Shown here one piece after another: positions 6,154 to 26,704 of a DNA stretch of 64,000 nucleotides. A model generated the notes under the pieces. That model saw nothing but the letters and a program-made list of their open reading frames with translations. It ran no database searches and was not told the origin of the DNA. The stretch lies in IMG/VR virus record IMGVR_UViG_3300017754_000635; one strand, written 5' to 3'. A program made the position numbers and the translations under genes. Within the stretch, counting starts at the first letter, position 1, and every line of letters starts with the position of its first letter. Source of the DNA: an uncultured virus (IMG/VR IMGVR_UViG_3300017754_000635) (taxonomy: Duplodnaviria > Heunggongvirae > Uroviricota > Caudoviricetes).

Positions 6154-6404
6154 ATTTTTCTCCGCGCTTCTTCTACGTTAGGGGATACCTGCATTATTTT
6201 TAAAACAGTCGTAACCGCAGATCGGTACGGCAGTAGAACTTCGCCGCCATTGAACCAGTTGTATACCGTCTGACGCGTTGCGCCTGTCGCTTGTGCGATG
6301 AAAGTAACTGGAAGGTCAAAGTGAATAGCGTAGCGACCAAGCTGGTTGCCGAGCGTCTTTGGTGCCTTTAGTACGCTTTCTCGTACGGAATCTGAGTAGG
6401 CCAT
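6126..6404 (-). CDS. Cro/XRE-like HTH DNA-binding protein
   Basis: IAQATGATRQTVYNWFNG helix-turn-helix signature. Confidence 0.75.
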   Translation of the reverse strand: MAYSDSVRESVLKAPKTLGNQLGRYAIHFDLPVTFIAQATGATRQTVYNWFNGGEVLLPYRSAVTTVLKIMQVSPNVEEARRKICAAFNLPA

Positions 6405-6424
6405 TGTGTGTAATTAGTAGTTGA

Positions 6425-6526: not shown

Positions 6527-7471
6527 TTAGTCGTCTGTTTCGTCCCAAGCATCAACGAGTTTCGACAGATCGCCGCCGCCCTTTGGCACGTTAGCGCCAA
6601 CTGCTGCTTCCTTACGAACTGCTGGCTCTGCTGCGCCTTCGTCTTCCTCGGCCTCCACCTGCGCCTTAGTCTTCTTGGTCTTTGCCGGTGGCTTGCCCGC
6701 AACTTCCGCCTGTGCTGCGGCCTGTTGCGCTGCGGTCTTGACACCATCCGTCTGAGACACCGTCATCGTGATTGCATTGATAGCTTCACGCGTCTGGCCT
6801 TTCTCAGTGGCAATACCGTACTCCTCATCAGACAGCCAGCGCAGCGCCTTGAAGAACAGCTTGGGCACAGCGGCCTTGGTATCGAACTTCATGCGGGTAA
6901 CCACAGCATCAGCACCAGCACCCATCGCAGCCATGTAGCGAGCGTAAGCCTGAAGCGGGCGGTTGTCGCCCTCTTCCTTGCCAAAGATCGACTGCGCAGG
7001 AAGCGTCAGCTGCATGACATCGCCCGACATATCGTTAGCCAAGGTAACTGCAAGACGCTGGCTGTACCGGCAAGCTCGGCTAGTGCCATCGCCCGAACCC
7101 GCGATGTTTTGTGGGCAGGAAGCACAGGTTGTGGACTGTGGCTTCTCAGCTTTCGGGTCAGGGCGCTCACCATCTGGCGACCAACAAGCCGGAGCAGATG
7201 CTTGGCCTTCCTCGTACTTGCCGAGGTAGAAGGTACGCGAGACTTTGGGAGCCGCATTGACAATGACGACATCCAGATGGCGGTCATCAATCGACGCGAC
7301 TTCTTCGCCGTTGGAGATCAGACGGAACACGCCGCCCTTGATGGAGATACGCTTACCGCTGGCACCGCTACCCGCAAGGGCTTTGGCAACAGCAGACAGT
7401 TCACCACGCTTGATGAACGATGGGAGGGACGAGGGGTTAAATTCGACAATATTTGACATGGATTTACTCAC
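6527..7471 (-). CDS. putative single-stranded DNA-binding/annealing protein
   Basis: Position in the replication module, Cys motifs (CWS, CASCPQN, ACR), long Ala/Lys/Glu linker and acidic C-terminal tail WDETDD. Confidence 0.55.
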   Translation of the reverse strand: MSKSMSNIVEFNPSSLPSFIKRGELSAVAKALAGSGASGKRISIKGGVFRLISNGEEVASIDDRHLDVVIVNAAPKVSRTFYLGKYEEGQASAPACWSPDGERPDPKAEKPQSTTCASCPQNIAGSGDGTSRACRYSQRLAVTLANDMSGDVMQLTLPAQSIFGKEEGDNRPLQAYARYMAAMGAGADAVVTRMKFDTKAAVPKLFFKALRWLSDEEYGIATEKGQTREAINAITMTVSQTDGVKTAAQQAAAQAEVAGKPPAKTKKTKAQVEAEEDEGAAEPAVRKEAAVGANVPKGGGDLSKLVDAWDETDD

Positions 7472-7872
7472 TTAGTTGGTTTACGAACACTGATCTGATA
7501 CTCGGTATCAGAGTTAAGCCCCGGCGGTACAAGCTCCGGGTTTTCTTCAAGGAACTGCGCCATGTTGCGTTGAGCAATGCGCCGCTCCAGAAGGTCAACG
7601 GCATCGTGCTGGATAACAAACTCCTTGAACGATGCCCAATCTTGGGTGGTGTAGCGGGTCTTGGTGCCAAGCATTACTGTGCCGAACTCGGTACGCATGG
7701 ACTTGGTACCAAGCGCCATCATCTGGGACTTCATGGCTTGCTCGATCTCATCTTCCTGCTTGTCGAGGTCGGCCAGCTCGGTTTCGTACTGCTGGGTTAA
7801 TTCGGACTTAGCGGCTCGGATTTTGAGGTAGACCCTAGCCAGCTTGTCCATGGGGACAATTTCTGTATTCAT
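7468..7872 (-). CDS. coiled-coil replication-module protein
   Basis: 134 aa, GGAG RBS, coupled to the putative SSB gene. Confidence 0.65.
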   Translation of the reverse strand: MNTEIVPMDKLARVYLKIRAAKSELTQQYETELADLDKQEDEIEQAMKSQMMALGTKSMRTEFGTVMLGTKTRYTTQDWASFKEFVIQHDAVDLLERRIAQRNMAQFLEENPELVPPGLNSDTEYQISVRKPTK

Positions 7873-7923
7873 GTGTTTCTCCGTGGTTGGGTGCTGCTGT
7901 CAAAGATTTTACAACCGGCTTTT

Positions 7924-13480: not shown

Positions 13481-13804
13481 TCAGCTCCCTATCTGTTGGT
13501 CTGGTGGTAAGGTTGAGTTGTACTCATCCCATACTTCTTCCAGCATCGCCGCTGAAGTCATCAGCATATGTACTAACGCATCATGCTTGTACTCATCCAA
13601 CCCCTCGGCGTAGCCGCGCATCCGGTGCGCCATCGTGTAGTACTGTAATTTCCGTGCGTTTATCATTTGTTTTCCTATGTGGTTGGGGTTATCGAGTGCT
13701 AACCTGCCGCAGTGCGAACATTGCCATGCCTGTTGTCGCTTGCTGCCGATGTATTGCCATGAGTGGTTGCAGCCTTTCTGGTATTGGTTATGGTCTCCGC
13801 TCAT
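13481..13804 (-). CDS. hypothetical protein (Zn-ribbon-like N-terminus)
   Basis: CNHSW...CSHC; coupled ORF. Confidence 0.5.
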   Translation of the reverse strand: MSGDHNQYQKGCNHSWQYIGSKRQQAWQCSHCGRLALDNPNHIGKQMINARKLQYYTMAHRMRGYAEGLDEYKHDALVHMLMTSAAMLEEVWDEYNSTLPPDQQIGS

Positions 13805-15436: not shown

Positions 15437-15976
15437 TTAGTCATCAGTGGCTTCGCTATCGACACGGAGGCCGGTCTCGCCGCCCCGCAAGCTTGGAAGC
15501 AACCCGCGGATACCCGCCGTAGGCAGTCGCCACAACTCGACGAACTGCTTGTCACGGGAGACCACGCAGGTGTACGTGCCCTTACCCCACCGGCTCGTAG
15601 CCCTTGCCGCTACGCTGGACTGCAACCGCGCTGCTTCAAAGCCGCCGACAGGAATCTGAACCAGATCATCCGGCTCCATGTTCTCCATGTACGGCAGGTA
15701 GTGGGTTGATAGCGAACCCCAAGGCGTGGCAGAGTCGCTACGCTTGGCGCGTGTGGGCGCTGCTTCTTCTGCTTGCAGTGCGACCGTCCCCAGATCGATC
15801 TTGTGCTCGTCACTGTGGATCAGATAGTCGATGCCGAACCGCTTGTGCAGCAGGTCAAGGGTGAAGGCGCACTGCTCAAGCATACGCTCAAACGTCTCGG
15901 GCAGTGTCGTCTCTTTGCGGAGGGCGCGAATCTCCTTGGGTACTTTGCGCAGGTCTACTTTAGGCAGTTTAGCCAT
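15437..15976 (-). CDS. hypothetical protein (possible DNA-binding)
   Basis: 179 aa, AAGGA RBS, putative promoter upstream. Confidence 0.6.
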   Translation of the reverse strand: MAKLPKVDLRKVPKEIRALRKETTLPETFERMLEQCAFTLDLLHKRFGIDYLIHSDEHKIDLGTVALQAEEAAPTRAKRSDSATPWGSLSTHYLPYMENMEPDDLVQIPVGGFEAARLQSSVAARATSRWGKGTYTCVVSRDKQFVELWRLPTAGIRGLLPSLRGGETGLRVDSEATDD

Positions 15977-16009
15977 GGTTGGATTTCCTTAAAAGTAAAG
16001 GTGGAATGG

Positions 16010-17439: not shown

Positions 17440-17703
17440 TTAGTATCCTTTCGCTTTGTTGATTGCTTCCATGGCTGTGTTGATTGCATCGCTCGTTTGC
17501 ATACCGAACACGATGTCCTCCACACACTTTCCGAGTATGACCTCAAGGCTTTCGAACTCGTGCATGGCGTTGGACAAGATGTACCCGGTGGTGTACAGCA
17601 GCGAGGGCACAGCGAGTTGCGGTTGAATATCCCCATCAGGATCGCGCAGGGCTTTCATGATGCGGTGCATGATGGCTTGCATTTGTGCTTGATCGTCACT
17701 CAT
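17440..17703 (-). CDS. hypothetical protein
   Basis: GAAAGGA RBS. Confidence 0.6.
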   Translation of the reverse strand: MSDDQAQMQAIMHRIMKALRDPDGDIQPQLAVPSLLYTTGYILSNAMHEFESLEVILGKCVEDIVFGMQTSDAINTAMEAINKAKGY

Positions 17704-18005
17704 TTGGTTGTATCCTTTCTCTCGATTGAAAGTGCTACCTCGATTGCATTAACAACGGCTTCCTTGAACTCAGTTACAAGCGTAACTAAGTCAACCGCAG
17801 TCCACTCTGCATAGGGCGCAAGCGGAACCATCTCTGCGTTGGGTGAGCCGTCAACCTTCACCGCATACTCAAGCGAAGTCTCGGCGCAGTTGTCGAGGAA
17901 CCGCAAGGGGTCAACCGGCCACCCCTCCTCGTCAATGTTGTCGAACACTTGCGACAGTGCTGCATACGCAGCGATCTCATCGATCTTGTATGAACTGATA
18001 GCCAT
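17700..18005 (-). CDS. hypothetical acidic protein
   Basis: AAGGAG RBS. Confidence 0.6.
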   Translation of the reverse strand: MAISSYKIDEIAAYAALSQVFDNIDEEGWPVDPLRFLDNCAETSLEYAVKVDGSPNAEMVPLAPYAEWTAVDLVTLVTEFKEAVVNAIEVALSIERKDTTK

Positions 18006-18016
18006 GTGTCATCTCC

Positions 18017-19063
18017 TTATTGGACATCGTTAGCGTTGATAGAGCCGTCATCGAACAGAGTGCTGATGAGCGATGCTGCCTCGTCTGGGTCACTGTTAAC
18101 AAGCTCTGCCATCTCGCCTTGGTAGTGCTCGCCATACCACTCGATCAACAGATACTCTGCTTTCTGTGGCGCATCAATGATCCAGTCAATCAGCTTGGGC
18201 GCACCACGGCGATAGCAGTTGTACGCAGCGCGCAATACCTTGCGGTAGTTCTGCTTGGTCTTGGGGCGCACCTCGAAGCCGTCATAGTCGTAGTCACCTA
18301 GCGCAGCACCGCCAGTGTCGATGTCGCTGTGCTTGTCCCATGCGTACAGGTCTTTGGAGCTGCTCCTGGTGCTAGTCGTAAAGGTCACGCCCTTGCTGCC
18401 GGTCGTGGTTGTCTTGGAGTACGAGCGCAAGTCTTCATCCCAGTAGTCACCCATGCTGCCGTAACTGTTGTAGTTGTAGCCCTTGCGGTTGTACGAGAAG
18501 CCATGACCATACTTGGATGCAGACCATGCGTAGGTGTTGGACAGCCATGCACCCTCGTGCTTAACACCAGCAGCCTCGTTGATGATGACGCTCTCGCCAC
18601 TGCTGTGCATGAACGCGAACTTGTTAGACCCGCCGATCATGTCAGCGATGTAGTCTTGGAAGTCAACGTCGAAGAGCAGATCAGGATTGCCAGTCAACGC
18701 AGGGCGCAGGATGAACTCGATGAAGTGCCAAGTGTCAGACTTGCGTGGGTCGATTGGGTTACCCATAGACAGGATGCCGTTGTGCGCCATCCACACATCG
18801 TCAGTGACACGATACGGATGGCAGTTGTCCATGTCGATGTCGCCGTGGGTTTTCATGCGGTAGTGAATGATGCACTCACGCCCCTTCAGGGTCTCGTGAT
18901 AGATAGCTTTGATCTCGTCAGGCTTGCCGAGCGTCTTGATGACAACAAGCTTGCCGTTCTCGGAGTAGACAGCGCCGAAGCCGTCAGGGTTGTGTTGATA
19001 GAAGTCGAGCAGCAGCTCGTCGGAGAATACGGTATTGGCTGGGTGTTTGATGAGAATACACAT
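18017..19063 (-). CDS. class II (Ntn) glutamine amidotransferase
   Basis: N-terminal Met-Cys nucleophile; NPDGFG, HYRMKTHG, NCHPY, HNG and SDT motifs. Confidence 0.9.
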   Translation of the reverse strand: MCILIKHPANTVFSDELLLDFYQHNPDGFGAVYSENGKLVVIKTLGKPDEIKAIYHETLKGRECIIHYRMKTHGDIDMDNCHPYRVTDDVWMAHNGILSMGNPIDPRKSDTWHFIEFILRPALTGNPDLLFDVDFQDYIADMIGGSNKFAFMHSSGESVIINEAAGVKHEGAWLSNTYAWSASKYGHGFSYNRKGYNYNSYGSMGDYWDEDLRSYSKTTTTGSKGVTFTTSTRSSSKDLYAWDKHSDIDTGGAALGDYDYDGFEVRPKTKQNYRKVLRAAYNCYRRGAPKLIDWIIDAPQKAEYLLIEWYGEHYQGEMAELVNSDPDEAASLISTLFDDGSINANDVQ

Positions 19064-19092
19064 GGTTAGTTTCCTTTCGTGGTTGTGGTTGG

Positions 19093-21360
19093 TTAGGCGA
19101 TAAGCCCTGATTCTTTGAGATAGCTTCTGAGATAGCGAGTCTCCGAGCGTTGGGTAGGGTCTGCGATGAACCGTATGAAGCGTTCAGTCGAGAGGTTGAA
19201 GCCCGCAGGTGACGCAGGGGCAGTGAAGTTGACGACAGCGTTAGCGAACTCCAATGCAGCCATCAGCGACCCATGCTTCAACGTACCCTTGAAGATGCGG
19301 AACTCGACAGTCTTGTCGTTCTCAAGGTTCAGTGCGTCATAGCGGTCGATGGCGTAGTGCGCTTTGCCCATCTGCTTGTCACGGATGCGAGCGTAGTTGG
19401 TAGCATAGCGACGAGCGACAGCCTTGACCAACGGCGCATTGTCAGGATGGTTGATGAACACGTTCATGCGGTTGAGCTGCAAGTCATGCAGGTTCTTGCG
19501 AGAGACATGGACATGAAGACCGCAGGTCGAAGTGTCATGCGAGCGCAGATGCCTGACTAGCTCTTTGTCTTGCAGCCATTCCCAGAAGTCTGCATGAGTG
19601 TCGAGACCCATCGGGTTGGTAATCATCTCGAAGCCAGAGTCAGACAGCGAGCCATCGTTCTCGAACCAGACCTTGCGACCGATCTCACCCTCGTTGAGTG
19701 TGTTGTTCAAACGCTCGACTGCATCGAACCTATCGGAGCGGCACTCGATCTCAAGCTCGACACCGATGAACCTATCGTTACGCTTGACCCAGTCAGACTC
19801 GATGAACTTGAAGCCATGACGCTTGGTCGAATGATACGAAGCGATCAACTCCGCACGATACTCGTAGTCACGATGGCGATGGCGATCCATGTTGTCGTCA
19901 TACATAAACTCTTCGTCATTCTCGTGGATGGTCACCTCGTCGCCGTAACGATCAATCGCAGTAACAGCTGCCCCACGATAGATGTAGTCATCGTAGTAGT
20001 CCGAGTACACATAGTCGCTGTTCAAGCATGACCGGCACACACCCTCGTCGTGGTTGTACGGTGTGCGAAGCGCATCCTCCAACTCCCAGTCACCGCAGTC
20101 CTGACACATGGTGTAGCCATTGCACTCCAGATGGTCAGTCATTTCATCGTGGTCATTGGTTCCGAGACTAAGCAGACTGTCCAAGATAGAGCGCACATGG
20201 TGCAGTCGCATACTGTCTGCGCGGCGCAGACGACCACGAGCCATTGCATACTCCAGCGCGAACAAGCCCTCGCCTGACTTGGTTGAAACGTCAAGCAGGA
20301 AGTCAAAGATTAGCTTGCGTACTGCATCGCGCACCTCGGCATACGTATCGCGCATCCCGTTGTACTCAGGCCAGAGCATATGGAAGTCAGTGTTGTTGGC
20401 ACGAACTACTACGTCTTCCTGAATCTCAGAGATCATCTCGATGACACGGTCATGCCTGTCAGGGCTTGCGGTGATGCTCTCCATGCTGTTGGCGATAGCG
20501 TCAAAGAAGCGTTGCAGCGTAGCGCGCGCTGCCGCAACCTCGCTGTCTGGATACGCACCGGTTGGGATGCGCGGAGCCAGCATCGCACTCTGCACTCTGT
20601 TGACTGCAAGCACAAGCACTGCGTGTTTCAAGCGAGTCATCATACGGTCGCCTTGCATGATGCGAGTGCTGAACTCATACGGCAGCGGATGCCGGTATTC
20701 CAGGTTGATGTCCATCGCTGCGCGGTGGTTTGCTACGAGTGCTTCACTGATTGTGTTGAAGCTTGACGCTTCGATTAGTAGTTCTTGCATAGCTTCCTCC
20801 TGTGGTTGGTTGGTACTACGGTGGTACTCGGTGATGCTTTGCTGCTCGGTGCTACTCTGACTCATGAAGATGTAAGTCTTGTATGACGGCACTATTGTCG
20901 GCACGTTGTCGTCGAGCATCACGCCCTCGTATCTGGGGTGGCTTGATGATTCCCGTGATGTGAAGCGCCAGTTGGACTCGTACTCTTGCTCCCACCCAAA
21001 CCCGCCAAAGCCGTCAACGCTGTTGGCTCTGTATATTGCTGTTTGAATTATCCCGCTGGCCTTGCGCTTCTCGAGCATCAACCTGTCAAGCAAGGGCAGG
21101 TAGACAACAAGCTCTACGGCATCGGACACAAACAACTCGCGCAGACCGAGGAACTGATCTGATTGATGAATGCGATGCAGGGTAGGGCGGTAGTCGATGG
21201 GCGGCTCGTTTGTTTCAGCCACTATGCGTTTGCCTTGCAGCCAGTCGCTTAACTGGGGCGAGGTCATGGTGATGATTGAGCCGAGCGAGTTTTGCGGGAG
21301 CCAGTAAGGGGCTGGCGAGTGCATATCGTAGATACGCGGGCTTTCATAGATCATAGGCAT
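19093..21360 (-). CDS. COOH-NH2 ligase (amidoligase, glutamine synthetase/GCS fold) with long N-terminal extension
   Basis: IGVELEIE, NDGSL...FEMIT, CGLHVHV and TVEFRIFKGT; Zn-ribbon CQDC...CRSC. Probable internal start at 20790. Confidence 0.85.
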   Translation of the reverse strand: MPMIYESPRIYDMHSPAPYWLPQNSLGSIITMTSPQLSDWLQGKRIVAETNEPPIDYRPTLHRIHQSDQFLGLRELFVSDAVELVVYLPLLDRLMLEKRKASGIIQTAIYRANSVDGFGGFGWEQEYESNWRFTSRESSSHPRYEGVMLDDNVPTIVPSYKTYIFMSQSSTEQQSITEYHRSTNQPQEEAMQELLIEASSFNTISEALVANHRAAMDINLEYRHPLPYEFSTRIMQGDRMMTRLKHAVLVLAVNRVQSAMLAPRIPTGAYPDSEVAAARATLQRFFDAIANSMESITASPDRHDRVIEMISEIQEDVVVRANNTDFHMLWPEYNGMRDTYAEVRDAVRKLIFDFLLDVSTKSGEGLFALEYAMARGRLRRADSMRLHHVRSILDSLLSLGTNDHDEMTDHLECNGYTMCQDCGDWELEDALRTPYNHDEGVCRSCLNSDYVYSDYYDDYIYRGAAVTAIDRYGDEVTIHENDEEFMYDDNMDRHRHRDYEYRAELIASYHSTKRHGFKFIESDWVKRNDRFIGVELEIECRSDRFDAVERLNNTLNEGEIGRKVWFENDGSLSDSGFEMITNPMGLDTHADFWEWLQDKELVRHLRSHDTSTCGLHVHVSRKNLHDLQLNRMNVFINHPDNAPLVKAVARRYATNYARIRDKQMGKAHYAIDRYDALNLENDKTVEFRIFKGTLKHGSLMAALEFANAVVNFTAPASPAGFNLSTERFIRFIADPTQRSETRYLRSYLKESGLIA

Positions 21361-21414
21361 GATGATTCTCCTTGTAGTTGTACTTCGTGGTTGTGGTTGG
21401 TTCTGTTAACTCAG

Positions 21415-24209: not shown

Positions 24210-24416
24210 TACACGTCATTTCAGAACCCTTGACAGAGGGAAAGCAGACCCCACCATGCCCCCACCCCATCAAACTAGGCAGCGGCGGGGCTTCGCCATA
24301 TAACACTATTCCCCACACGCTCCACAACTTTTCTTAATATTTTGTCAACTACCAAAACCCAAAAATTTTTTATAAAAATCCCATCAAGCTTTGTCAAACA
24401 TTAGACAGGCTCCCAT

Positions 24417-24447
24417 AAAAAAAGCCCCCGGAGATAAAGCCGGGGGC
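24417..24447 (-). terminator. intrinsic terminator
   Basis: 8-bp GC stem followed by TTTTTTT on the minus strand. Confidence 0.75.
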
Positions 24448-24526
24448 CGAAAGCACACGGGGGTGTGCGCTCATTGCTTCTTCCAACCACGGAAGCGCCA
24501 TCGTGTAGGAGATGTACACAATGGCA
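24417..24526 (-). ncRNA. candidate ~110-nt antisense sRNA with three hairpins and an intrinsic terminator
   Basis: Promoter TTGTAC-17-TATACT (24561-24533); hairpins with loops CAUCUCC, GUGGUU and CCCC; then GCCCCCGG/CCGGGGGC followed by U7. Confidence 0.6.
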
Positions 24527-24532
24527 AATTTG

Positions 24533-24561
24533 AGTATATACTCCGCCCAACTCGGGTACAA
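24533..24561 (-). promoter_or_regulatory. sigma70-like promoter; palindromic AGTATATACT also gives a plus-strand -10 upstream of the terminase genes
   Basis: TTGTAC-N17-TATACT on the minus strand; TATACT at 24537-24542 on the plus strand. Confidence 0.5.
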
Positions 24562-24576
24562 GTCCCCGCACTGCCT

Positions 24577-25191
24577 ATGCTTGAGCACTTGATTGATGAA
24601 GTTGTATTAACCCCCGACGTGCTTACCGCGCCGGAGGGCAAACTTGTCTCCAAAGCAACTCCCCAAGAAGTAGTTGACGCGCAAATCGAAACGGCCAAAT
24701 GGCTAGAAGAACTGGGCTGCGCCGACGACTCCGATGTGTTTGATCAGATCCAAGAGAACAACGCCCGCGATGCCTTCGCCGCTATGGTGTCAAACGCCCC
24801 ACCTGATCAGCAAAAAACCCAACTGGTACGAATAAATACCCCACAGGCCGTAAAACATCTGGTCGGTATGCTAACTGCGTACGACTGGCACTTTGTCGAA
24901 CAAGCCAAAGAGATTCGCGGCTACGCTGTGGCCCAGCTAGTCGAGGAAACCAAGCACCCAGACGCAAAGATCCGGCTAAAAGCCTTGGAGTTGCTGGGTA
25001 AAGTCACCGAAGTGGCGTTGTTTACTGAGCGCGTTGAGGTTAAAAAGACCGAACTGTCCGACGCAGAGCTGGAAGACCGCATCAAAGACAAGCTTGAGCG
25101 TATGGCAAAGATCATCGACGTGACGGACGTGACCGAGGTCGAGGTAAAACCAGTGGAGGACAGCGGTGAACCTGACGAAACAGGAAATTGA
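24577..25191 (+). CDS. putative terminase small subunit
   Basis: Directly upstream of and overlapping TerL; RLKALELLGK motif; start placed at MLEHLI. Confidence 0.65.
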   Translation: MLEHLIDEVVLTPDVLTAPEGKLVSKATPQEVVDAQIETAKWLEELGCADDSDVFDQIQENNARDAFAAMVSNAPPDQQKTQLVRINTPQAVKHLVGMLTAYDWHFVEQAKEIRGYAVAQLVEETKHPDAKIRLKALELLGKVTEVALFTERVEVKKTELSDAELEDRIKDKLERMAKIIDVTDVTEVEVKPVEDSGEPDETGN

Positions 25192-26704
25192 TGCGCTGCA
25201 AAAGATCCTTCCGACGCTCTCGCCGACGGAGAAAGCCGAGTTATTGGCTGATTTGGAGGAAAGGGCGACTCGTGCGGCTAAGAAAGCTGCTCAAACTAAC
25301 ATGCTCGGCTTCGCTACGCAGGTTTATCCGGGGTTTAAGATCGGCCCTCACCACCGGAAGTTAGCAAAAGTCTTCCAAGACGTTATCGACGGCAAGAAAA
25401 AGCGCGTAATTATCAATATTGCGCCGCGTATGGGTAAGTCGGAGTTCTCCTCCTACCTGTTTCCTGCGTATTTCCTTGGAAACTTCCCCGAAAAGAAGAT
25501 CATCATGGGCACCCACACCGCTGGCCTGTCCGAAGACTTTGGTCGTAGGGTCCGAAACTTGCTTGAAAGCGAGGAATACCGTGAGATTTTCCCCAAGACG
25601 CAGGTCGCTGACGATCAAAAAGCTGCTGGTAAGTGGTCTACTTCTTCTGGCGGTCAGTATTACGCTGCCGGTGTTGGCGGTGCTCTGGCTGGTCGCGGCG
25701 CGGACTTGTTCGTTATTGACGACCCCCACTCAGAACAGGATATGAAGGCCAACTCACGGCTTGCGTTCGACAGCGCGTGGTCGTGGTTCCAGCAAGGTCC
25801 CTTGCAACGTCTGATGCCGGGCGGTGCGATCATCGTAATCATGACCCGCTGGTCGCTGGTGGACTTAACCGGGCGGCTTATTGACTTTTCCATCAAGAAC
25901 CCCGATGCTGACCAGTGGGAAGTGATCGAGCTTCCTGCCATCTTCAACGAAGACACCGAGGACGAGAAGAGCCTGTGGCCGGAGCAGTGGCCTCTGGACA
26001 TGTTGAAGGCGAAGAAGGCCAACATGGACCCGCGTTATTGGAACGCGCAGTACATGCAAAACCCAACATCGGATGCGTCCGCTGTTATTTCCCGTGGAGC
26101 TTGGCAAGTCTGGGAGCATGAGCGCCCGCCTGAGTGCGAGTTCGTGATCCAGAGCTGGGATACCGCGCACGAGACCAAAACCACCTCCGACTACAGCGCC
26201 TGTACAACATGGGGTGTTTGGTACAACGAAGAGGACGGCAACTCCCCCAACCTCATTCTGCTCGATGCCTTCAAAGACAGGATGGCGTTCCCTGAACTTA
26301 AAGCAACGGCACTAAAGCATTGGAAGGAGTGGGAGCCAGATGCGTTCATTGTGGAGAAAAAGGCAGCAGGTGCCCCACTTATTCAAGAACTACGTGCAAT
26401 GGGTATTCCGGTTCAAGAGTTCACGCCCTCGCGTGGCCGCACTGCCGGCTCCACCGACAAAGTTGCGCGATTAAACGCCGTCTCTGACTTGTTTGCCTCT
26501 GGCAAAGTGTGGGCACCAGATACACGTTGGGCACGGGAAGTGATTGAAGAAGTAGCAGCCTTCCCGGTTGGCGAGCATGACGACTATGTGGATACGGTCT
26601 CGCAAGCCTTGCTGCGCTTCCGTCAGGGCGGTTTCATTAACCTGCCGTCGGACTACCAAGACGAGCCGAGCTTCTTTCGGCGTAAGACACACGCTTATTA
26701 TTAG
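25166..26704 (+). CDS. terL: terminase large subunit
   Basis: APRMGKS Walker A, VIDDP Walker B, MTRW; nuclease motifs SWDTA and HDDYVD. Confidence 0.95.
   Translation: MNLTKQEIDALQKILPTLSPTEKAELLADLEERATRAAKKAAQTNMLGFATQVYPGFKIGPHHRKLAKVFQDVIDGKKKRVIINIAPRMGKSEFSSYLFPAYFLGNFPEKKIIMGTHTAGLSEDFGRRVRNLLESEEYREIFPKTQVADDQKAAGKWSTSSGGQYYAAGVGGALAGRGADLFVIDDPHSEQDMKANSRLAFDSAWSWFQQGPLQRLMPGGAIIVIMTRWSLVDLTGRLIDFSIKNPDADQWEVIELPAIFNEDTEDEKSLWPEQWPLDMLKAKKANMDPRYWNAQYMQNPTSDASAVISRGAWQVWEHERPPECEFVIQSWDTAHETKTTSDYSACTTWGVWYNEEDGNSPNLILLDAFKDRMAFPELKATALKHWKEWEPDAFIVEKKAAGAPLIQELRAMGIPVQEFTPSRGRTAGSTDKVARLNAVSDLFASGKVWAPDTRWAREVIEEVAAFPVGEHDDYVDTVSQALLRFRQGGFINLPSDYQDEPSFFRRKTHAYY

What the first reader, a model, noticed from the sequence alone, without database searches (positions are those of the whole stretch)
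24417..24561. Candidate phage-encoded multi-target antisense sRNA aimed at the phage's own early-gene RBSs
Seen in sequence: the minus strand has a TTGTAC-17-TATACT promoter, then ~110 nt folding into three hairpins and an intrinsic terminator with U7. A U-G pair in stem 1 (GCCAUUGUGUA/UACACGAUGGC) works only on this strand. Its arms and loops match plus-strand sequence, and so are antisense to the minus-strand mRNA, at translation starts: GCCAT(T)GTGT(A)CATCTCCT vs 18001-18017 (start codon plus SD of 17700..18005, two 1-nt bulges); GCCATTGTGT exact at 6400-6409 (HTH start codon); TCCGTGGTTGG exact at 7880-7890 (SD of 7468..7872); and CGTGGTTG/GTGGTTGG/TGGTTGGA at 19078, 21386, 20802 and 15976 (leaders of the GATase, amidoligase and another early gene). 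The third loop is CCCC, and several genes use GGGG-type SDs. Inference: an RNA switch expressed back-to-back with the terminase promoter that shuts off early and replication translation, or confers superinfection immunity, analogous to P1 C4 and P4 CI RNAs but multi-target.
Basis: partly seen in the sequence, partly recalled or inferred. Interest (0 to 1): 0.85.

Follow-up and report, generated by a model that had tools for sequence, protein, structure and literature searches.

The report
Phage small RNA mirroring early ribosome sites
Between the packaging genes and the replication genes of this uncultured freshwater phage lies a conserved gene for a small non-coding RNA whose most conserved stretch is the mirror image of the ribosome-landing sequence shared by several of the phage's own early genes, so it probably switches their translation off.

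Summary
On the minus strand at 24561..24417 there is a promoter, three hairpins and a strong intrinsic terminator with U7. The fold is far better than shuffles (z -5.9).

It is a real, strand-specific RNA gene. All 59 usable terS-upstream regions from related uncultured freshwater phages keep the same unit. Helices covary, about a quarter of paired cells are G.U, and no ORF is conserved.

What is conserved in sequence is a UCUCC-centred seed. Its flanks differ between clades in step with the extended ribosome-binding site of that clade's early genes:
- Window clade: CUCC-GUGGUUGG against CCAACCAC(A)GGAG at 3-5 early starts per genome.
- Distant clade: UUGCUUCUCCUUGA against UCAAGGAGAAnCAA at 14-22 of 34-49 early starts and 0-1 late starts.

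The hairpin-1 matches (18001, 6400) are not conserved and are at chance level.

Best reading: a trans-acting anti-RBS sRNA repressing a set of the phage's own early genes. No transcript data, host or timing is known. It matches no Rfam family at threshold. It most resembles the CU-rich double-hairpin ('toxic') sRNAs of Betaproteobacteria, and P1 c4 in logic. I rate it a new variant of a known kind.

The parts
24533..24561 (-). Promoter of the small RNA: -35 TTGTAC (24561..24556), 17-nt spacer, -10 TATACT (24538..24533). The -10 lies in the palindrome AGTATATACT (24533..24542).
   Evidence: Sequence. In 59 of 59 related terS-upstream regions a TTG-starting -35 lies 16-18 nt (57 at 17 nt) from a TA(T/C)A(C/A)T-type -10, while the last three -35 letters vary. 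Not listed by the consensus scan because the -35 scores 3 of 6.
24496..24526 (-). Hairpin 1 (GCCAUUGUGUA / UACACGAUGGC, loop CAUCUCC at 24514..24508). The predicted 5' end of the RNA is about 24526.
   Evidence: Fold. In the 19-sequence alignment the helix is 94.7% paired, with 3 pairs changed on both sides and many G.U pairs. Loop sequence is not conserved.
24480..24495 (-). Hairpin 2 carrying the seed: CUUCC-GUGGUU-GGAAG. CCGUGGUUGG is invariant in the near clade. It is antisense to CCAACCAC-GG(A), the early-gene RBS box.
   Evidence: T40..A51 of the alignment are invariant in 19 sequences, while the two outer pairs switch C-G/U-A to U-A/C-G. Lowest opening energy of the RNA. Best non-self target genome-wide uses this segment.
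24451..24472 (-). Hairpin 3 (GCGCACAC / GUGUGCU, loop rich in C).
   Evidence: Fold. The stem differs and the CCCC(C) loop is kept in L081 and L083 only. Other relatives have other or extra hairpins here, or none.
24417..24448 (-). Intrinsic terminator: GGCCCCCGG / CCGGGGGC(U), loop CUUUAUCU(CC), then U7 (24423..24417).
   Evidence: Every one of the 51 distinct related RNAs ends in a G+C hairpin followed by a run of at least 6 T on this strand.
24513..24542 (+). Plus-strand promoter-like site for terS: TGTACA, 18-nt spacer, TATACT. It shares the palindromic -10 region with the small-RNA promoter.
   Evidence: Listed. 58 of 59 relatives have TATACT/TACACT on this strand. The best -35 match is 5 of 6 in 20 relatives and 3 of 6 in 33. 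The -10 lies a median 33 nt before the terS ATG.
24577..25191 (+). terS (small terminase subunit), the first gene of the plus-strand structural block. No Shine-Dalgarno sequence was seen upstream.
   Evidence: PHROG 51, E 1.2e-4. Followed by terL (25166..26704) and portal. Upstream sequence.
24369..24407 (-). Strong early promoter just after the terminator: TTGACA (24397..24392), 17-nt spacer, TATAAA (24374..24369). Its -35 lies inside the operator-like palindrome TGTCTAATGTTTGACA (24407..24392).
   Evidence: Sequence. The palindrome is perfect in relatives (TGTCTAATATTAGACA, TGTCAAACGTTTGACA). A strict pattern for the promoter is met in 36 of 59 relatives.
7870..7892 (-). Candidate target 1: start region of 7468..7872 (DUF7307, Pam3 gp33-like), CCCAACCACGGAGAAACACAUG.
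   Evidence: Best non-self site on both strands of the window (-15.3 kcal/mol including opening). Cofold gain -13.9. Orthologues in G002-G004 keep CCAACCAC-A-GGAG.
19061..19092 (-). Candidate target 2: start region of 18017..19063 (GATase-like), CCAACCACAACCACGAAAGGAAACUAACCAUG.
   Evidence: Cofold gain -9.1. The orthologues' starts in G002, G003 and G004 carry CCAACCAC + SD.
21358..21400 (-). Candidate target 3: start region of 19093..21360 (amidoligase-domain ORF), CCAACCACAACCACGAAG...AAGGAG...AUG.
   Evidence: Cofold gain -7.8.
20788..20813 (-). Candidate target 4: CCAACCAACCACAGGAGGAAGCUAUG, an RBS box plus AUG (20790..20788) inside the 755-aa ORF.
   Evidence: Cofold gain -12.1. Whether it is a true start was not settled.
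15972..15986 (-). Candidate target 5: start of 15437..15976, UCCAACCAUGG. The pairing covers the AUG.
   Evidence: -13.1. The orthologues (MAK..PK proteins) carry CCAACCAC + SD in G002-G004.
13664..13686 (-). Further RBS-box site CCAACCACAUAGGAAAACAAAUG, inside the called ORF 13481..13804.
   Evidence: Cofold gain -8.7. Status as a start not settled.

Best explanation
The locus is a stand-alone gene for a non-coding RNA of about 105-110 nt (5' end about 24526, 3' end 24417-24423, minus strand).

Host RNA polymerase transcribes it from a sigma-70-type promoter. That promoter shares a palindromic -10 region with the divergent terS promoter. Transcription stops at an intrinsic terminator, just before the strong early promoter.

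The RNA acts in trans by base pairing. Its conserved UCUCC-centred seed is CUUCCGUGGUUGG in the window, displayed as hairpin 2 with the loop GUGGUU. The loop pairs first with CCAACCAC, which sits directly upstream of the Shine-Dalgarno sequence of a subset of early genes. Pairing then spreads over the GGAG, so the ribosome cannot land and translation falls (and perhaps mRNA stability too). The early genes concerned are the DUF7307 gene, the GATase-like and amidoligase genes, 15437..15976, and two further sites.

Shown:
- The RNA gene, its strand, its structure and its conservation.
- Seed-to-RBS complementarity that changes clade by clade.

Inferred:
- That the RNA is made.
- That the pairing occurs and represses.
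- That it serves an early-to-late change in translation.
For: (1) Gene anatomy: promoter, three hairpins, terminator + U7. z -5.94 against 200 shuffles.

(2) Conservation:
- 59 of 59 usable terS-upstream regions of relatives have TTG -35 / 16-18 nt / -10. All 51 distinct RNAs end in hairpin + T6-8.
- A covariance model built only from the distant clade finds the window RNA (27.5 bits, E 7e-4) and 50 of 80 terL loci, always on the same strand.

(3) Structure and strand:
- Near clade: 94.9% of 356 cells paired, 5 pairs changed on both sides, 0 of 500 shuffles reach the covariation score.
- Distant clade: 97.5% of 314 cells paired, 0 of 500.
- G.U cells are 88 of 356 and 89 of 314, so the opposite strand would pair only 71.3% and 69.4%.

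(4) Non-coding: plus-strand ORFs are absent (8), start-stop (15), short (10) or run into terS in all three frames (18) among 51 distinct sequences. Length differences between relatives are not multiples of three.

(5) Seed: the invariant stretch lies between covarying helices. It is CCGUGGUUGG in 19 near-clade sequences and TTGCTTCTCCTTGA in 22 distant-clade sequences.

(6) Targets:
- CCAACCAC occurs 5-9 times on the early strand of the window, G002, G003 and G004. Of these, 3-4 per genome are at called gene starts, and 2 more in the window and 1 in G004 sit before SD+ATG. No copy on the other strand adjoins a Shine-Dalgarno sequence; the one other-strand copy with a called start within 60 nt (G002 50488) lies in the early-leader intergenic region.
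- It is the commonest non-SD 7-mer of early start regions in G002-G004.

(7) Clade-matched change. With the CUCC core kept and the flanks shuffled:
- The real seed binds its own early start regions better than all 300 shuffles in the window (z -3.1), G007 (-3.8), G009 (-3.3) and G010 (-4.0).
- It does not do so for late start regions, except in G009, which has only 9.
- Starts at -14 kcal/mol or better with the own seed: G007 22 of 49 early against 1 of 22 late; G009 14 of 42 against 1 of 9; G010 21 of 34 against 0 of 34.
- The G008 seed CUCCUGU matches its frequent early ACAGGAG (5 of 38).

(8) Window scan of both strands:
- The best non-self site is the DUF7307 start region (-15.3).
- 3 of 9 distinct sites at -12 or better are start-proximal, against roughly 5% of the search space (my estimate).
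- Cofolding the full RNA with 70-nt targets gains -7.7 to -13.9 kcal/mol.
Against: - No transcript evidence: no RNA run holds the region.
- The -35 is weak (3 of 6) and the consensus scan does not call the promoter.
- Any CUCC-bearing RNA is complementary to any Shine-Dalgarno sequence, so part of the signal is trivial.
- In the three near-clade relatives the mean-energy test is not significant (z -1.2, -1.0, -1.3; 32, 50 and 30 of 300 shuffles do as well). The same holds for G008 (z -1.4; 24 of 300).
- In the whole-genome scan of G002 the top non-self sites are internal, not start regions. The bulged DUF7307 site is not among the 30 rows printed.
- In the window, enrichment at start regions vanishes at weaker cut-offs: 7 of 121 windows at -10 or better.
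- In the near clade the UCUCC is paired inside hairpin 2, and the window has CUUCC, giving a G.U and a mismatch against GGAGA.
- Exact k-mer matches are equally common on the control strand.
- CAACCAC is generally enriched in sense strands.
- The plus strand of the RNA gene necessarily carries a perfect 'early-type RBS box' followed by a start codon in 43 of 51 sequences. That could be the selected feature.
- Host and host targets are unknown.
Confidence: 0.55

Rival explanations
1. The RNA is real and trans-acting, but its main targets are host mRNAs. It would be a phage copy or mimic of the CU-rich 'double-hairpin'/toxic small RNAs of Betaproteobacteria, which cover ribosome-binding sites of metabolic genes and slow growth. 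The match to phage early genes would be secondary. This is not exclusive of the best explanation.
For: - Sub-threshold but repeated full-length matches to RF02278: window 23.4 bits; L094 27.9, L099 25.4, L122 25.0, L137 24.7. The family's 5' UGUCUCC aligns to the phage (C)GUCUCC.
- Weaker matches to two other Burkholderia sRNA families: RF02837 at 24-26 bits; RF02871 at 34.7 bits in L083, against a gathering score of 43.
- Passages of PMC5688073 state three things: these host RNAs carry unpaired CU-rich stretches that are the reverse complement of RBSs; 55-80% of predicted interactions fall at gene starts; and ncS27 overexpression slows growth.
- One close terL relative sits in a Burkholderiaceae MAG bin.
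Against: - All scores are about half the gathering score (50), apart from RF02871 at 34.7 against 43, and they rest largely on the terminator.
- The seed flanks follow the phage's own early-gene RBS context clade by clade, which host targets would not explain.
- MAG bins of relatives span many phyla, so no host can be named.
Confidence: 0.2
2. The short transcript has no trans function. It would be the terminated by-product of the divergent arm of a symmetric (bidirectional) terS promoter, with the terminator acting as an insulator for the early promoter. Alternatively it would be a cis-acting leader whose read-through into the early genes is regulated, like lambda pR'-6S-tR' or HK022 put.
For: - The -10 region is a perfect palindrome with promoter-like hexamers on both strands in 58-59 of 59 relatives.
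- The unit lies in tandem with, and directly upstream of, the early genes.
- There are no expression data.
Against: - A by-product would not keep covarying helices and an invariant unpaired 14-mer across clades.
- The TTG of the minus-strand -35 is invariant while its other letters vary.
- The early genes have their own consensus promoter after the terminator (TTGACA-17-TATAAA; 36 of 59 by a strict pattern). They therefore do not depend on read-through.
- The middle of the RNA gains and loses whole hairpins, unlike a switch with alternative folds.
- No Q-like or other antiterminator family was found among the 46 proteins scanned.
Confidence: 0.12
3. The selected feature is on the plus strand: a structured leader of the terS mRNA with a masked Shine-Dalgarno sequence and a tiny upstream ORF (start-stop, or an N-terminal extension of terS) that couples or controls terS translation.
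For: - The plus strand folds almost as well (z -5.06).
- It carries CCAACCAC-GGA(A/G) followed by a start codon 5-11 nt later in 43 of 51 sequences. This includes GTG-TAG in the window, and ATG-TAA or GTG-TAA in the near-clade sequences classed as start-stop (15 in all, window included).
- terS has no visible Shine-Dalgarno sequence.
- In L081 the ORF is in frame with terS.
Against: - G.U pairs make the helices 23-28 percentage points worse on the plus strand.
- The T-run follows the terminator only on the minus strand.
- No promoter-like site lies to the left of the element on the plus strand. The one promoter-like site there lies downstream of the putative RBS.
- ORFs are absent in 8 sequences, are a bare start-stop in 15, and use all three frames in the rest.
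Confidence: 0.05

Closest known systems
Double-hairpin / 'toxic' small RNAs of Betaproteobacteria (Rfam RF02278; Burkholderia ncS03, ncS05, ncS27, ncS62)
   Same: [quoted passage not shown]
- The family's 5' UGUCUCC aligns with the phage UGUCUCC/CGUCUCC.
   Different: - Scores are 23-28 bits against a gathering score of 50, so it is not a member.
- The phage RNA has an extra 5' hairpin.
- In the window clade the CUCC is paired in a hairpin.
- It is phage-borne.
- Its seed flanks match the phage's own early-gene RBS boxes.
c4 antisense RNA of phages P1 and P7 (Rfam C4, RF01695)
   Same: A phage-encoded structured RNA whose exposed segments pair with complementary sequences around the ribosome-binding site of a phage mRNA encoded elsewhere, blocking translation. 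This is stated in passages of the 2025 review PMC12197685.
   Different: - No match to the C4 model even at E up to 10.
- c4 controls one operon (ant) for immunity of a temperate phage. By my recollection it is cut out of the same transcript as its target.
- Here there is a separate promoter, several dispersed targets, and no lysogeny genes seen among the 46 proteins scanned.
RegA of phage T4 (protein translational repressor of many early mRNAs)
   Same: Functional logic only: one phage product binding the start regions of many early messages to turn their translation down. RegA's role is recalled; a review on T4 post-transcriptional control, PMC3014915, was seen only in a search listing.
   Different: RegA is a protein. 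Here the proposed repressor is an RNA, and recognition is by base pairing.
NmsR sRNAs of Neisseria, and C-rich-loop sRNAs such as RsaE/RoxS
   Same: Pyrimidine-rich unpaired motifs that cover Shine-Dalgarno sequences of several mRNAs. NmsRs are as described in PMC5688073. RsaE/RoxS is recalled.
   Different: These are host chromosomal regulators of metabolism, with no sequence or model match here.

Membership tests
Stand-alone bacterial-type small RNA gene | Own promoter | tested here: met
   TTG -35 at 16-18 nt from a TAYAMT-type -10 in 59 of 59 relatives. Caveat: the window's -35 matches 3 of 6 and the consensus scan does not list it.
Stand-alone bacterial-type small RNA gene | Intrinsic terminator on the same strand | tested here: met
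   9-pair stem with 8 G-C pairs, plus T7. Present in all 51 distinct relatives.
Stand-alone bacterial-type small RNA gene | Conserved secondary structure with covariation, specific to one strand | tested here: met
   94.9% and 97.5% of cells paired; 0 of 500 shuffles reach the covariation score. The opposite strand pairs 71.3% and 69.4%.
Stand-alone bacterial-type small RNA gene | No conserved reading frame | tested here: met
   The plus-strand ORF survey of 51 sequences found no conserved frame or length. Indels between relatives are not multiples of three.
Stand-alone bacterial-type small RNA gene | A transcript of the predicted size is made | not testable with these tools
   No run on record as RNA holds the region.
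Betaproteobacteria toxic small RNA (RF02278) | Score at or above Rfam's gathering score (50 bits) | tested here: not met
   23.4 bits in the window; 24.7-27.9 bits in four relatives.
Betaproteobacteria toxic small RNA (RF02278) | Unpaired CU-rich stretch complementary to ribosome-binding sites | tested here: met
   UUCUCCUUGA is unpaired between helices in the distant clade. In the window the equivalents are the loop CAUCUCC and the half-paired CUUCC of hairpin 2.
C4 antisense RNA (RF01695, P1/P7 c4) | Match to the family model | tested here: not met
   No C4 match among 13 matches listed at E up to 10 in 24300..24650. None at gathering score in the whole window.
C4 antisense RNA (RF01695, P1/P7 c4) | Encoded in and processed from the transcript it controls; part of an immunity region | tested here: not met
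   It has its own promoter and terminator. Candidate targets lie 3-17 kb away. No repressor or integrase family among the 46 proteins scanned. The c4 features themselves are recalled.
Promoter-proximal terminated leader with regulated read-through (lambda pR'-6S-tR', HK022 put) | Downstream operon depends on read-through of the terminator | tested here: not met
   A consensus promoter (TTGACA-17-TATAAA) lies between the terminator and the first early gene. A strict pattern for it is met in 36 of 59 relatives.
Promoter-proximal terminated leader with regulated read-through (lambda pR'-6S-tR', HK022 put) | Antiterminator protein (Q-like) or put-type two-hairpin element | tested here: inconclusive
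   No such Pfam or PHROG family among the 46 proteins scanned. Most early proteins have no family at all. I know of no Rfam model for put.

The most novel reading that the evidence does not exclude
An RNA counterpart of T4 RegA. In a large family of uncultured freshwater phages, one arm of a symmetric promoter fires the packaging/late operon. The other arm makes a small RNA whose seed co-evolves with a shared 'RBS box' of the early genes. Turning on late transcription would then, through the same DNA element, silence translation of the early regulon and hand the ribosomes to late messages that carry a different RBS context.
Probability: 0.3. Interest if true: 0.8.

Novelty: new variant of a known kind. 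Interest (0 to 1): 0.62.

Why it matters
Known phage regulatory RNAs mostly control one neighbouring gene, serve lysogenic immunity, or act on the host. The 2025 review PMC12197685 (passages only) gives c4 as the RBS-binding example.

A conserved RNA in apparently lytic phages that recognises a family of the phage's own early messages through a shared, co-evolving ribosome-site box would be a new way for a virus to time its gene expression. It would also give a ready-made, programmable seed/box pair.

The element is widespread. It was found in 59 of 59 usable terS loci and in 50 of 80 terL loci from lake, river and drinking-water metagenomes. It could therefore serve as a marker and as an annotation feature for this uncultured group.

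Tried and rejected
- tRNA/tmRNA: none in the window.
- Rfam at gathering scores: no match in the window.
- Own genome: not held. The nearest record, G001, is a 20-kb fragment without the region.
- Expression: no RNA holder listed among 21 runs.
- Cultured relatives: the closest phage records have at most 52.6% terL identity. The two inspected (DSL-LC04, MinM2) have a different gene order upstream of terL and no hit to model R1. No cultured carrier was found.
- Host: terL relatives in genome collections are short MAG contigs binned to many phyla, so there is no inference.
- Plus-strand small ORF or terS extension: rejected as a conserved gene.
- Exact k-mer counting as a test of targeting: uninformative, because the two strands are alike.
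It was repeated for G002 only; G003 and G004 were not scanned in that way.
- Earlier notes of this scan: nothing for this place or sequence. A word search gave other anti-SD RNA candidates in other genomes; these were not used as evidence.
- Kimelman et al. 2012 (the source of the 'toxic small RNA' name) is not held. What is said about that family comes from passages of PMC4603805 and PMC5688073. Supplementary files were not seen.
Full report
**Setting**

The window is most of a large phage genome.
- Minus-strand genes from 3032 to 24214 include a DUF927 primase/helicase, an SNF2 helicase, a PD-(D/E)XK exonuclease, a family-A DNA polymerase, and an amidoligase / GATase-like pair.
- Plus-strand genes from 24577 onward are terS, terL, portal and further structural genes.
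- The finding lies in the 360-nt divergent spacer between the two blocks.

No integrase, repressor, RNA polymerase or antiterminator family was found among the 46 proteins scanned. Most early proteins match nothing.

The phage is uncultured. The best phage records reach at most 52.6% terL identity, and the DNA occurs in freshwater, lake and drinking-water metagenome runs.

**The observation**

Read on the minus strand, the stretch is:
- TTGTAC (24561..24556), 17 nt, TATACT (24538..24533);
- then hairpin 1 (24526..24496, loop CAUCUCC);
- hairpin 2 (24495..24480, CUUCC-GUGGUU-GGAAG);
- hairpin 3 (24472..24451, C-rich loop);
- and a 9-pair G+C terminator followed by seven T (24448..24417).

The fold is -53.6 kcal/mol against -32.5 +/- 3.6 for shuffles (z -5.94). 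The terminator is the strongest terminator-like site in 19 kb around it.

- The -35 is weak (3 of 6), so the consensus scan does not call this promoter. It calls instead a plus-strand promoter that uses the same -10 region, which is the perfect palindrome AGTATATACT. That palindrome is unique in the window.
- The opposite strand folds almost as well on its own (z -5.06), so one U-G pair is thin evidence for the strand.

There is no tRNA and no Rfam family at gathering score.

**It is a conserved RNA gene on the minus strand**

terS and terL relatives were fetched from IMG/VR. Of 70 terS loci with upstream sequence, 60 are distinct and 59 are long enough to judge. All 59 have the same unit in the same place.

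Promoter:
- A TTG-starting -35 lies 16-18 nt (57 at 17 nt) from a TATACT / TACACT / TACAAT-type -10.
- The other -35 letters vary (TTGTTG, TTGCAG, TTGTGG, TTGTAC ...).

RNA and terminator:
- The RNA is 82-137 nt. One relative (L112) has an RNA of 182 nt because of an insertion.
- All 51 distinct RNAs end in a G+C hairpin with T6-8.

Structure in the near clade (19 sequences, alignment A1):
- Hairpins 1 and 2 are 94.9% paired over 356 cells.
- Five pairs are changed on both sides.
- None of 500 shuffles reaches the covariation score, and slid controls drop to 34-51% paired.

Structure in a distant clade (22 sequences, A2):
- 97.5% of 314 cells pair, again 0 of 500.

Strand:
- 88 of 356 cells and 89 of 314 cells are G.U.
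- On the plus strand the same helices would therefore pair only 71.3% and 69.4%.
- With the T-run and the promoter, this fixes the strand.

Homology between clades: a covariance model built from the distant clade alone finds the window's RNA at 24417..24533 (27.5 bits, E 7e-4). It also finds 50 of 80 terL loci, always on the strand opposite to terL and about 0.7 kb upstream. Eight of the 30 misses have too little upstream DNA.

Non-coding: the middle of the RNA gains and loses whole hairpins, and length differences are not multiples of three. A survey of the plus strand finds no conserved ORF.

**What is conserved in sequence**

Outside the promoter and terminator, the invariant letters form one block after hairpin 1:
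- Near clade: (C)UGUCUCC-GUGGUUGG-AGA, or CUUCC...GGAAG in the window, L081 and L083. Here UCUCC pairs with GGAGA to display the loop GUGGUU.
- Distant clade: UUGCUUCUCCUUGA. Its UCUCCUU lies unpaired between hairpin 1 and a hairpin 2 whose stem covaries (GAUGG/CCAUC, GAGG/CCUC).
- Other clades: UUUCUCCUUG, ACUUCUCCUAG, UAUCUCCUGU.

An invariant unpaired stretch between covarying helices is what the seed of a base-pairing RNA looks like. That is inference from established knowledge of bacterial sRNAs.

**What the seed matches**

Window and three near-clade genomes. The genomes are G002 (67 kb, rated complete), G003 and G004, fetched.
- The word CCAACCAC occurs 5-9 times on the RNA's own strand, that is, in early messages.
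- 3-4 copies per genome lie at called gene starts, immediately (0-5 nt) before the Shine-Dalgarno sequence. In the window two further copies, and in G004 one, precede SD+ATG at uncalled starts.
- No copy on the other strand adjoins a Shine-Dalgarno sequence. One other-strand copy (G002 50488) lies within 60 nt of a called start, but it sits in the early-leader intergenic region.
- The genes are orthologous across genomes: DUF7307, the GATase-like gene, the MAK..PK protein, and the first gene of the amidoligase cluster.
- Counted without reference to the RNA, CAACCAC / CCAACCA are the commonest non-SD 7-mers of early start regions in G002-G004. They are absent from the late lists.
- CCAACCAC-GGAG is the exact complement of CUCC-GUGGUUGG. 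Most real sites carry one extra A between the two halves.

Distant clade.
- Early starts share (AA)UCAAGGAGAAnCAAA-AUG.
- This is complementary to the seed over 13-15 nt.
- AAGGAGA / AGGAGAA occur in 8-18 of 34-49 early start regions and are absent from the late top-8 lists.

G008. The frequent early word is ACAGGAG (5 of 38), and the seed reads CUCCUGU.

**Controls**

Flank-shuffle control. The CUCC core was kept and the twelve flanking letters shuffled, 300 times.
- The true seed binds its own early start regions better than every shuffle in the window (z -3.1), G007 (-3.8), G009 (-3.3) and G010 (-4.0).
- It shows no such excess on late start regions, except in G009, which has only nine.
- In G002, G003, G004 and G008 the mean-energy statistic is not significant (z -1.0 to -1.4; 24-50 of 300 shuffles as good). 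This is as expected if only four or five of about 40 genes are targets, but it is still a negative result.

Counts of strong sites. Starts at -14 kcal/mol or better with the own seed:
- G007: 22 of 49 early against 1 of 22 late.
- G009: 14 of 42 early against 1 of 9 late.
- G010: 21 of 34 early against 0 of 34 late.

Window scan. Accessibility-weighted 12-nt windows of the RNA were scanned against every 38-nt window of both strands.
- The best non-self site is the DUF7307 start region (-15.3 kcal/mol).
- Three of the nine distinct sites at -12 or better are start-proximal (7872, 17437, 15976), against roughly 5% of the search space (my estimate).
- At -10 or better the share falls to 7 of 121 windows, so there is no general enrichment.

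G002 scan. The same scan of G002 puts internal sites on top and misses the bulged DUF7307 site.

Cofolding. Cofolding the whole RNA with 70-nt targets still gains 7.7-13.9 kcal/mol in the window.

Caveats from base counts.
- Exact k-mer matches are equally frequent on the control strand.
- CAACCAC is enriched in sense strands in general.

Hairpin-1 matches. The matches at 18001-18017 and 6400-6409 fail on conservation. L081, with 98% identical terS, has a different hairpin 1 without CUCC. They also fail on accessibility, with opening energies of 10-14 kcal/mol.

**Mechanism proposed**

The RNA is made by host polymerase. The loop GUGGUU meets CCAACCAC in the leaders of a set of early messages. 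Pairing then extends into the 5' arm (CUCC) over the GGAG, and the ribosome is excluded. In the distant clade an already unpaired seed does the same on a much larger share of early genes.

The U-rich stretch before the terminator and the long U tail fit an Hfq-type chaperone site. That is recalled knowledge and was not tested.

The -10 region is shared with a plus-strand promoter. 58 of 59 relatives have TATACT/TACACT there, a median 33 nt before the terS ATG. The RNA and the packaging operon may therefore be fired from one symmetric element. That would make the RNA a late product that shuts early translation. This is inference only.

The operator-like palindrome over the -35 of the early promoter (24407..24392; perfect in relatives) would be the matching control at the level of transcription. 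This is speculation.

**Rivals**

Host targets.
- This is suggested by sub-threshold but repeated, full-length matches to Burkholderia sRNA families. They include RF02278, whose 5' UGUCUCC aligns to the phage motif.
- It is also suggested by the published anti-RBS character of those RNAs (PMC5688073 and PMC4603805, passages).
- It is not exclusive of self-targeting, and it cannot explain the clade-matched flanks.
- The host is unknown.

By-product, insulator or read-through leader.
- This fits the symmetric promoter and the tandem position.
- It does not fit the covarying helices, the invariant seed, or the consensus promoter that follows the terminator.

Plus-strand leader or mini-ORF.
- The plus strand carries an RBS box plus a start codon in 43 of 51 sequences, often as a bare start-stop.
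- Against this reading stand the G.U pairs, the direction of the T-run, the lack of a promoter to its left, and the absence of any conserved frame.

**Comparison and novelty**

It is not a member of any Rfam family. There are no matches at gathering score and no C4 match even at E up to 10. Scores are 23-28 bits against 50 for RF02278.

It works like:
- the CU-rich double-hairpin RNAs of Betaproteobacteria and the NmsRs;
- P1 c4, in being a phage RNA that covers a phage RBS in trans;
- T4 RegA, in regulatory logic (recalled).

Text searches and the passages read from a 2025 review showed no phage RNA described as targeting a family of the phage's own early start regions. Those searches cover open-access papers and preprints only, and supplements were closed.

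Verdict: a real and widespread new small-RNA family of uncultured freshwater phages, a new variant of the anti-RBS sRNA kind, with expression, timing and effect still to be shown.

Noticed in passing
window 24533..24542 and relatives (L081-L158): The -10 region between terS and the RNA gene is a perfect 10-bp palindrome that stays palindromic as it changes (AGTATATACT, AGTGTACACT). It gives -10 hexamers on both strands in 58-59 of 59 relatives, so it is a candidate symmetric bidirectional promoter or the site of a dimeric protein. It is unique in the window.
   Followed up: partly
window 24392..24407; relatives: A 16-bp palindrome (TGTCTAATATTAGACA / TGTCAAACGTTTGACA; imperfect in the window) overlaps the -35 TTGACA of the strong early promoter just after the terminator. 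It looks like an operator for an unidentified repressor.
   Followed up: no
window 24249..24270; relatives about 45 nt after the early -35: A G-rich box (GGGGGGTGGGG-type; in the window GATGGGGTGGGGGCATGGTGGGG) is conserved near the predicted start of the early transcript. Its role is unknown.
   Followed up: no
window 24577 (terS start): terS has no recognisable Shine-Dalgarno sequence (upstream ...GTCCCCGCACTGCCT-ATG), and the same holds in relatives. Most other genes of the phage have one.
   Followed up: no
window 24484..24512 plus strand; L081, L090 and others: The plus strand of the RNA gene reads as an early-type RBS box followed by a start and an immediate stop (window GTG-TAG; relatives ATG-TAA or GTG-TAA). 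In L081 the box instead opens an ORF in frame with terS.
   Followed up: partly
L112:1080-1261: One relative carries an insertion of about 100 nt, with its own G+C hairpin, between hairpin 1 and the seed of the RNA.
   Followed up: no
window 20788..20813 and 13664..13686: Two RBS-box + ATG signals lie inside longer called ORFs (the 755-aa amidoligase ORF, and 13481..13804). These ORFs may be two genes each, or may have internal starts.
   Followed up: no
G002 33496, G003 38196, G004 24811 (coordinates as printed): A conserved site ACCAACCACAGAUGACC... has the box directly abutting an AUG without a Shine-Dalgarno sequence. The predicted pairing gain with the RNA is about -12 to -13 kcal/mol. 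It may be an unannotated start.
   Followed up: no
   Followed up: partly
window 24415..24514; L081, L083, L094, L099, L122, L137: The only Rfam families that come near (RF02278, RF02837, RF02871) are all Burkholderia sRNAs. One close terL relative sits in a Burkholderiaceae MAG bin, while others sit in unrelated phyla. This is at most a weak hint at a betaproteobacterial host.
   Followed up: partly
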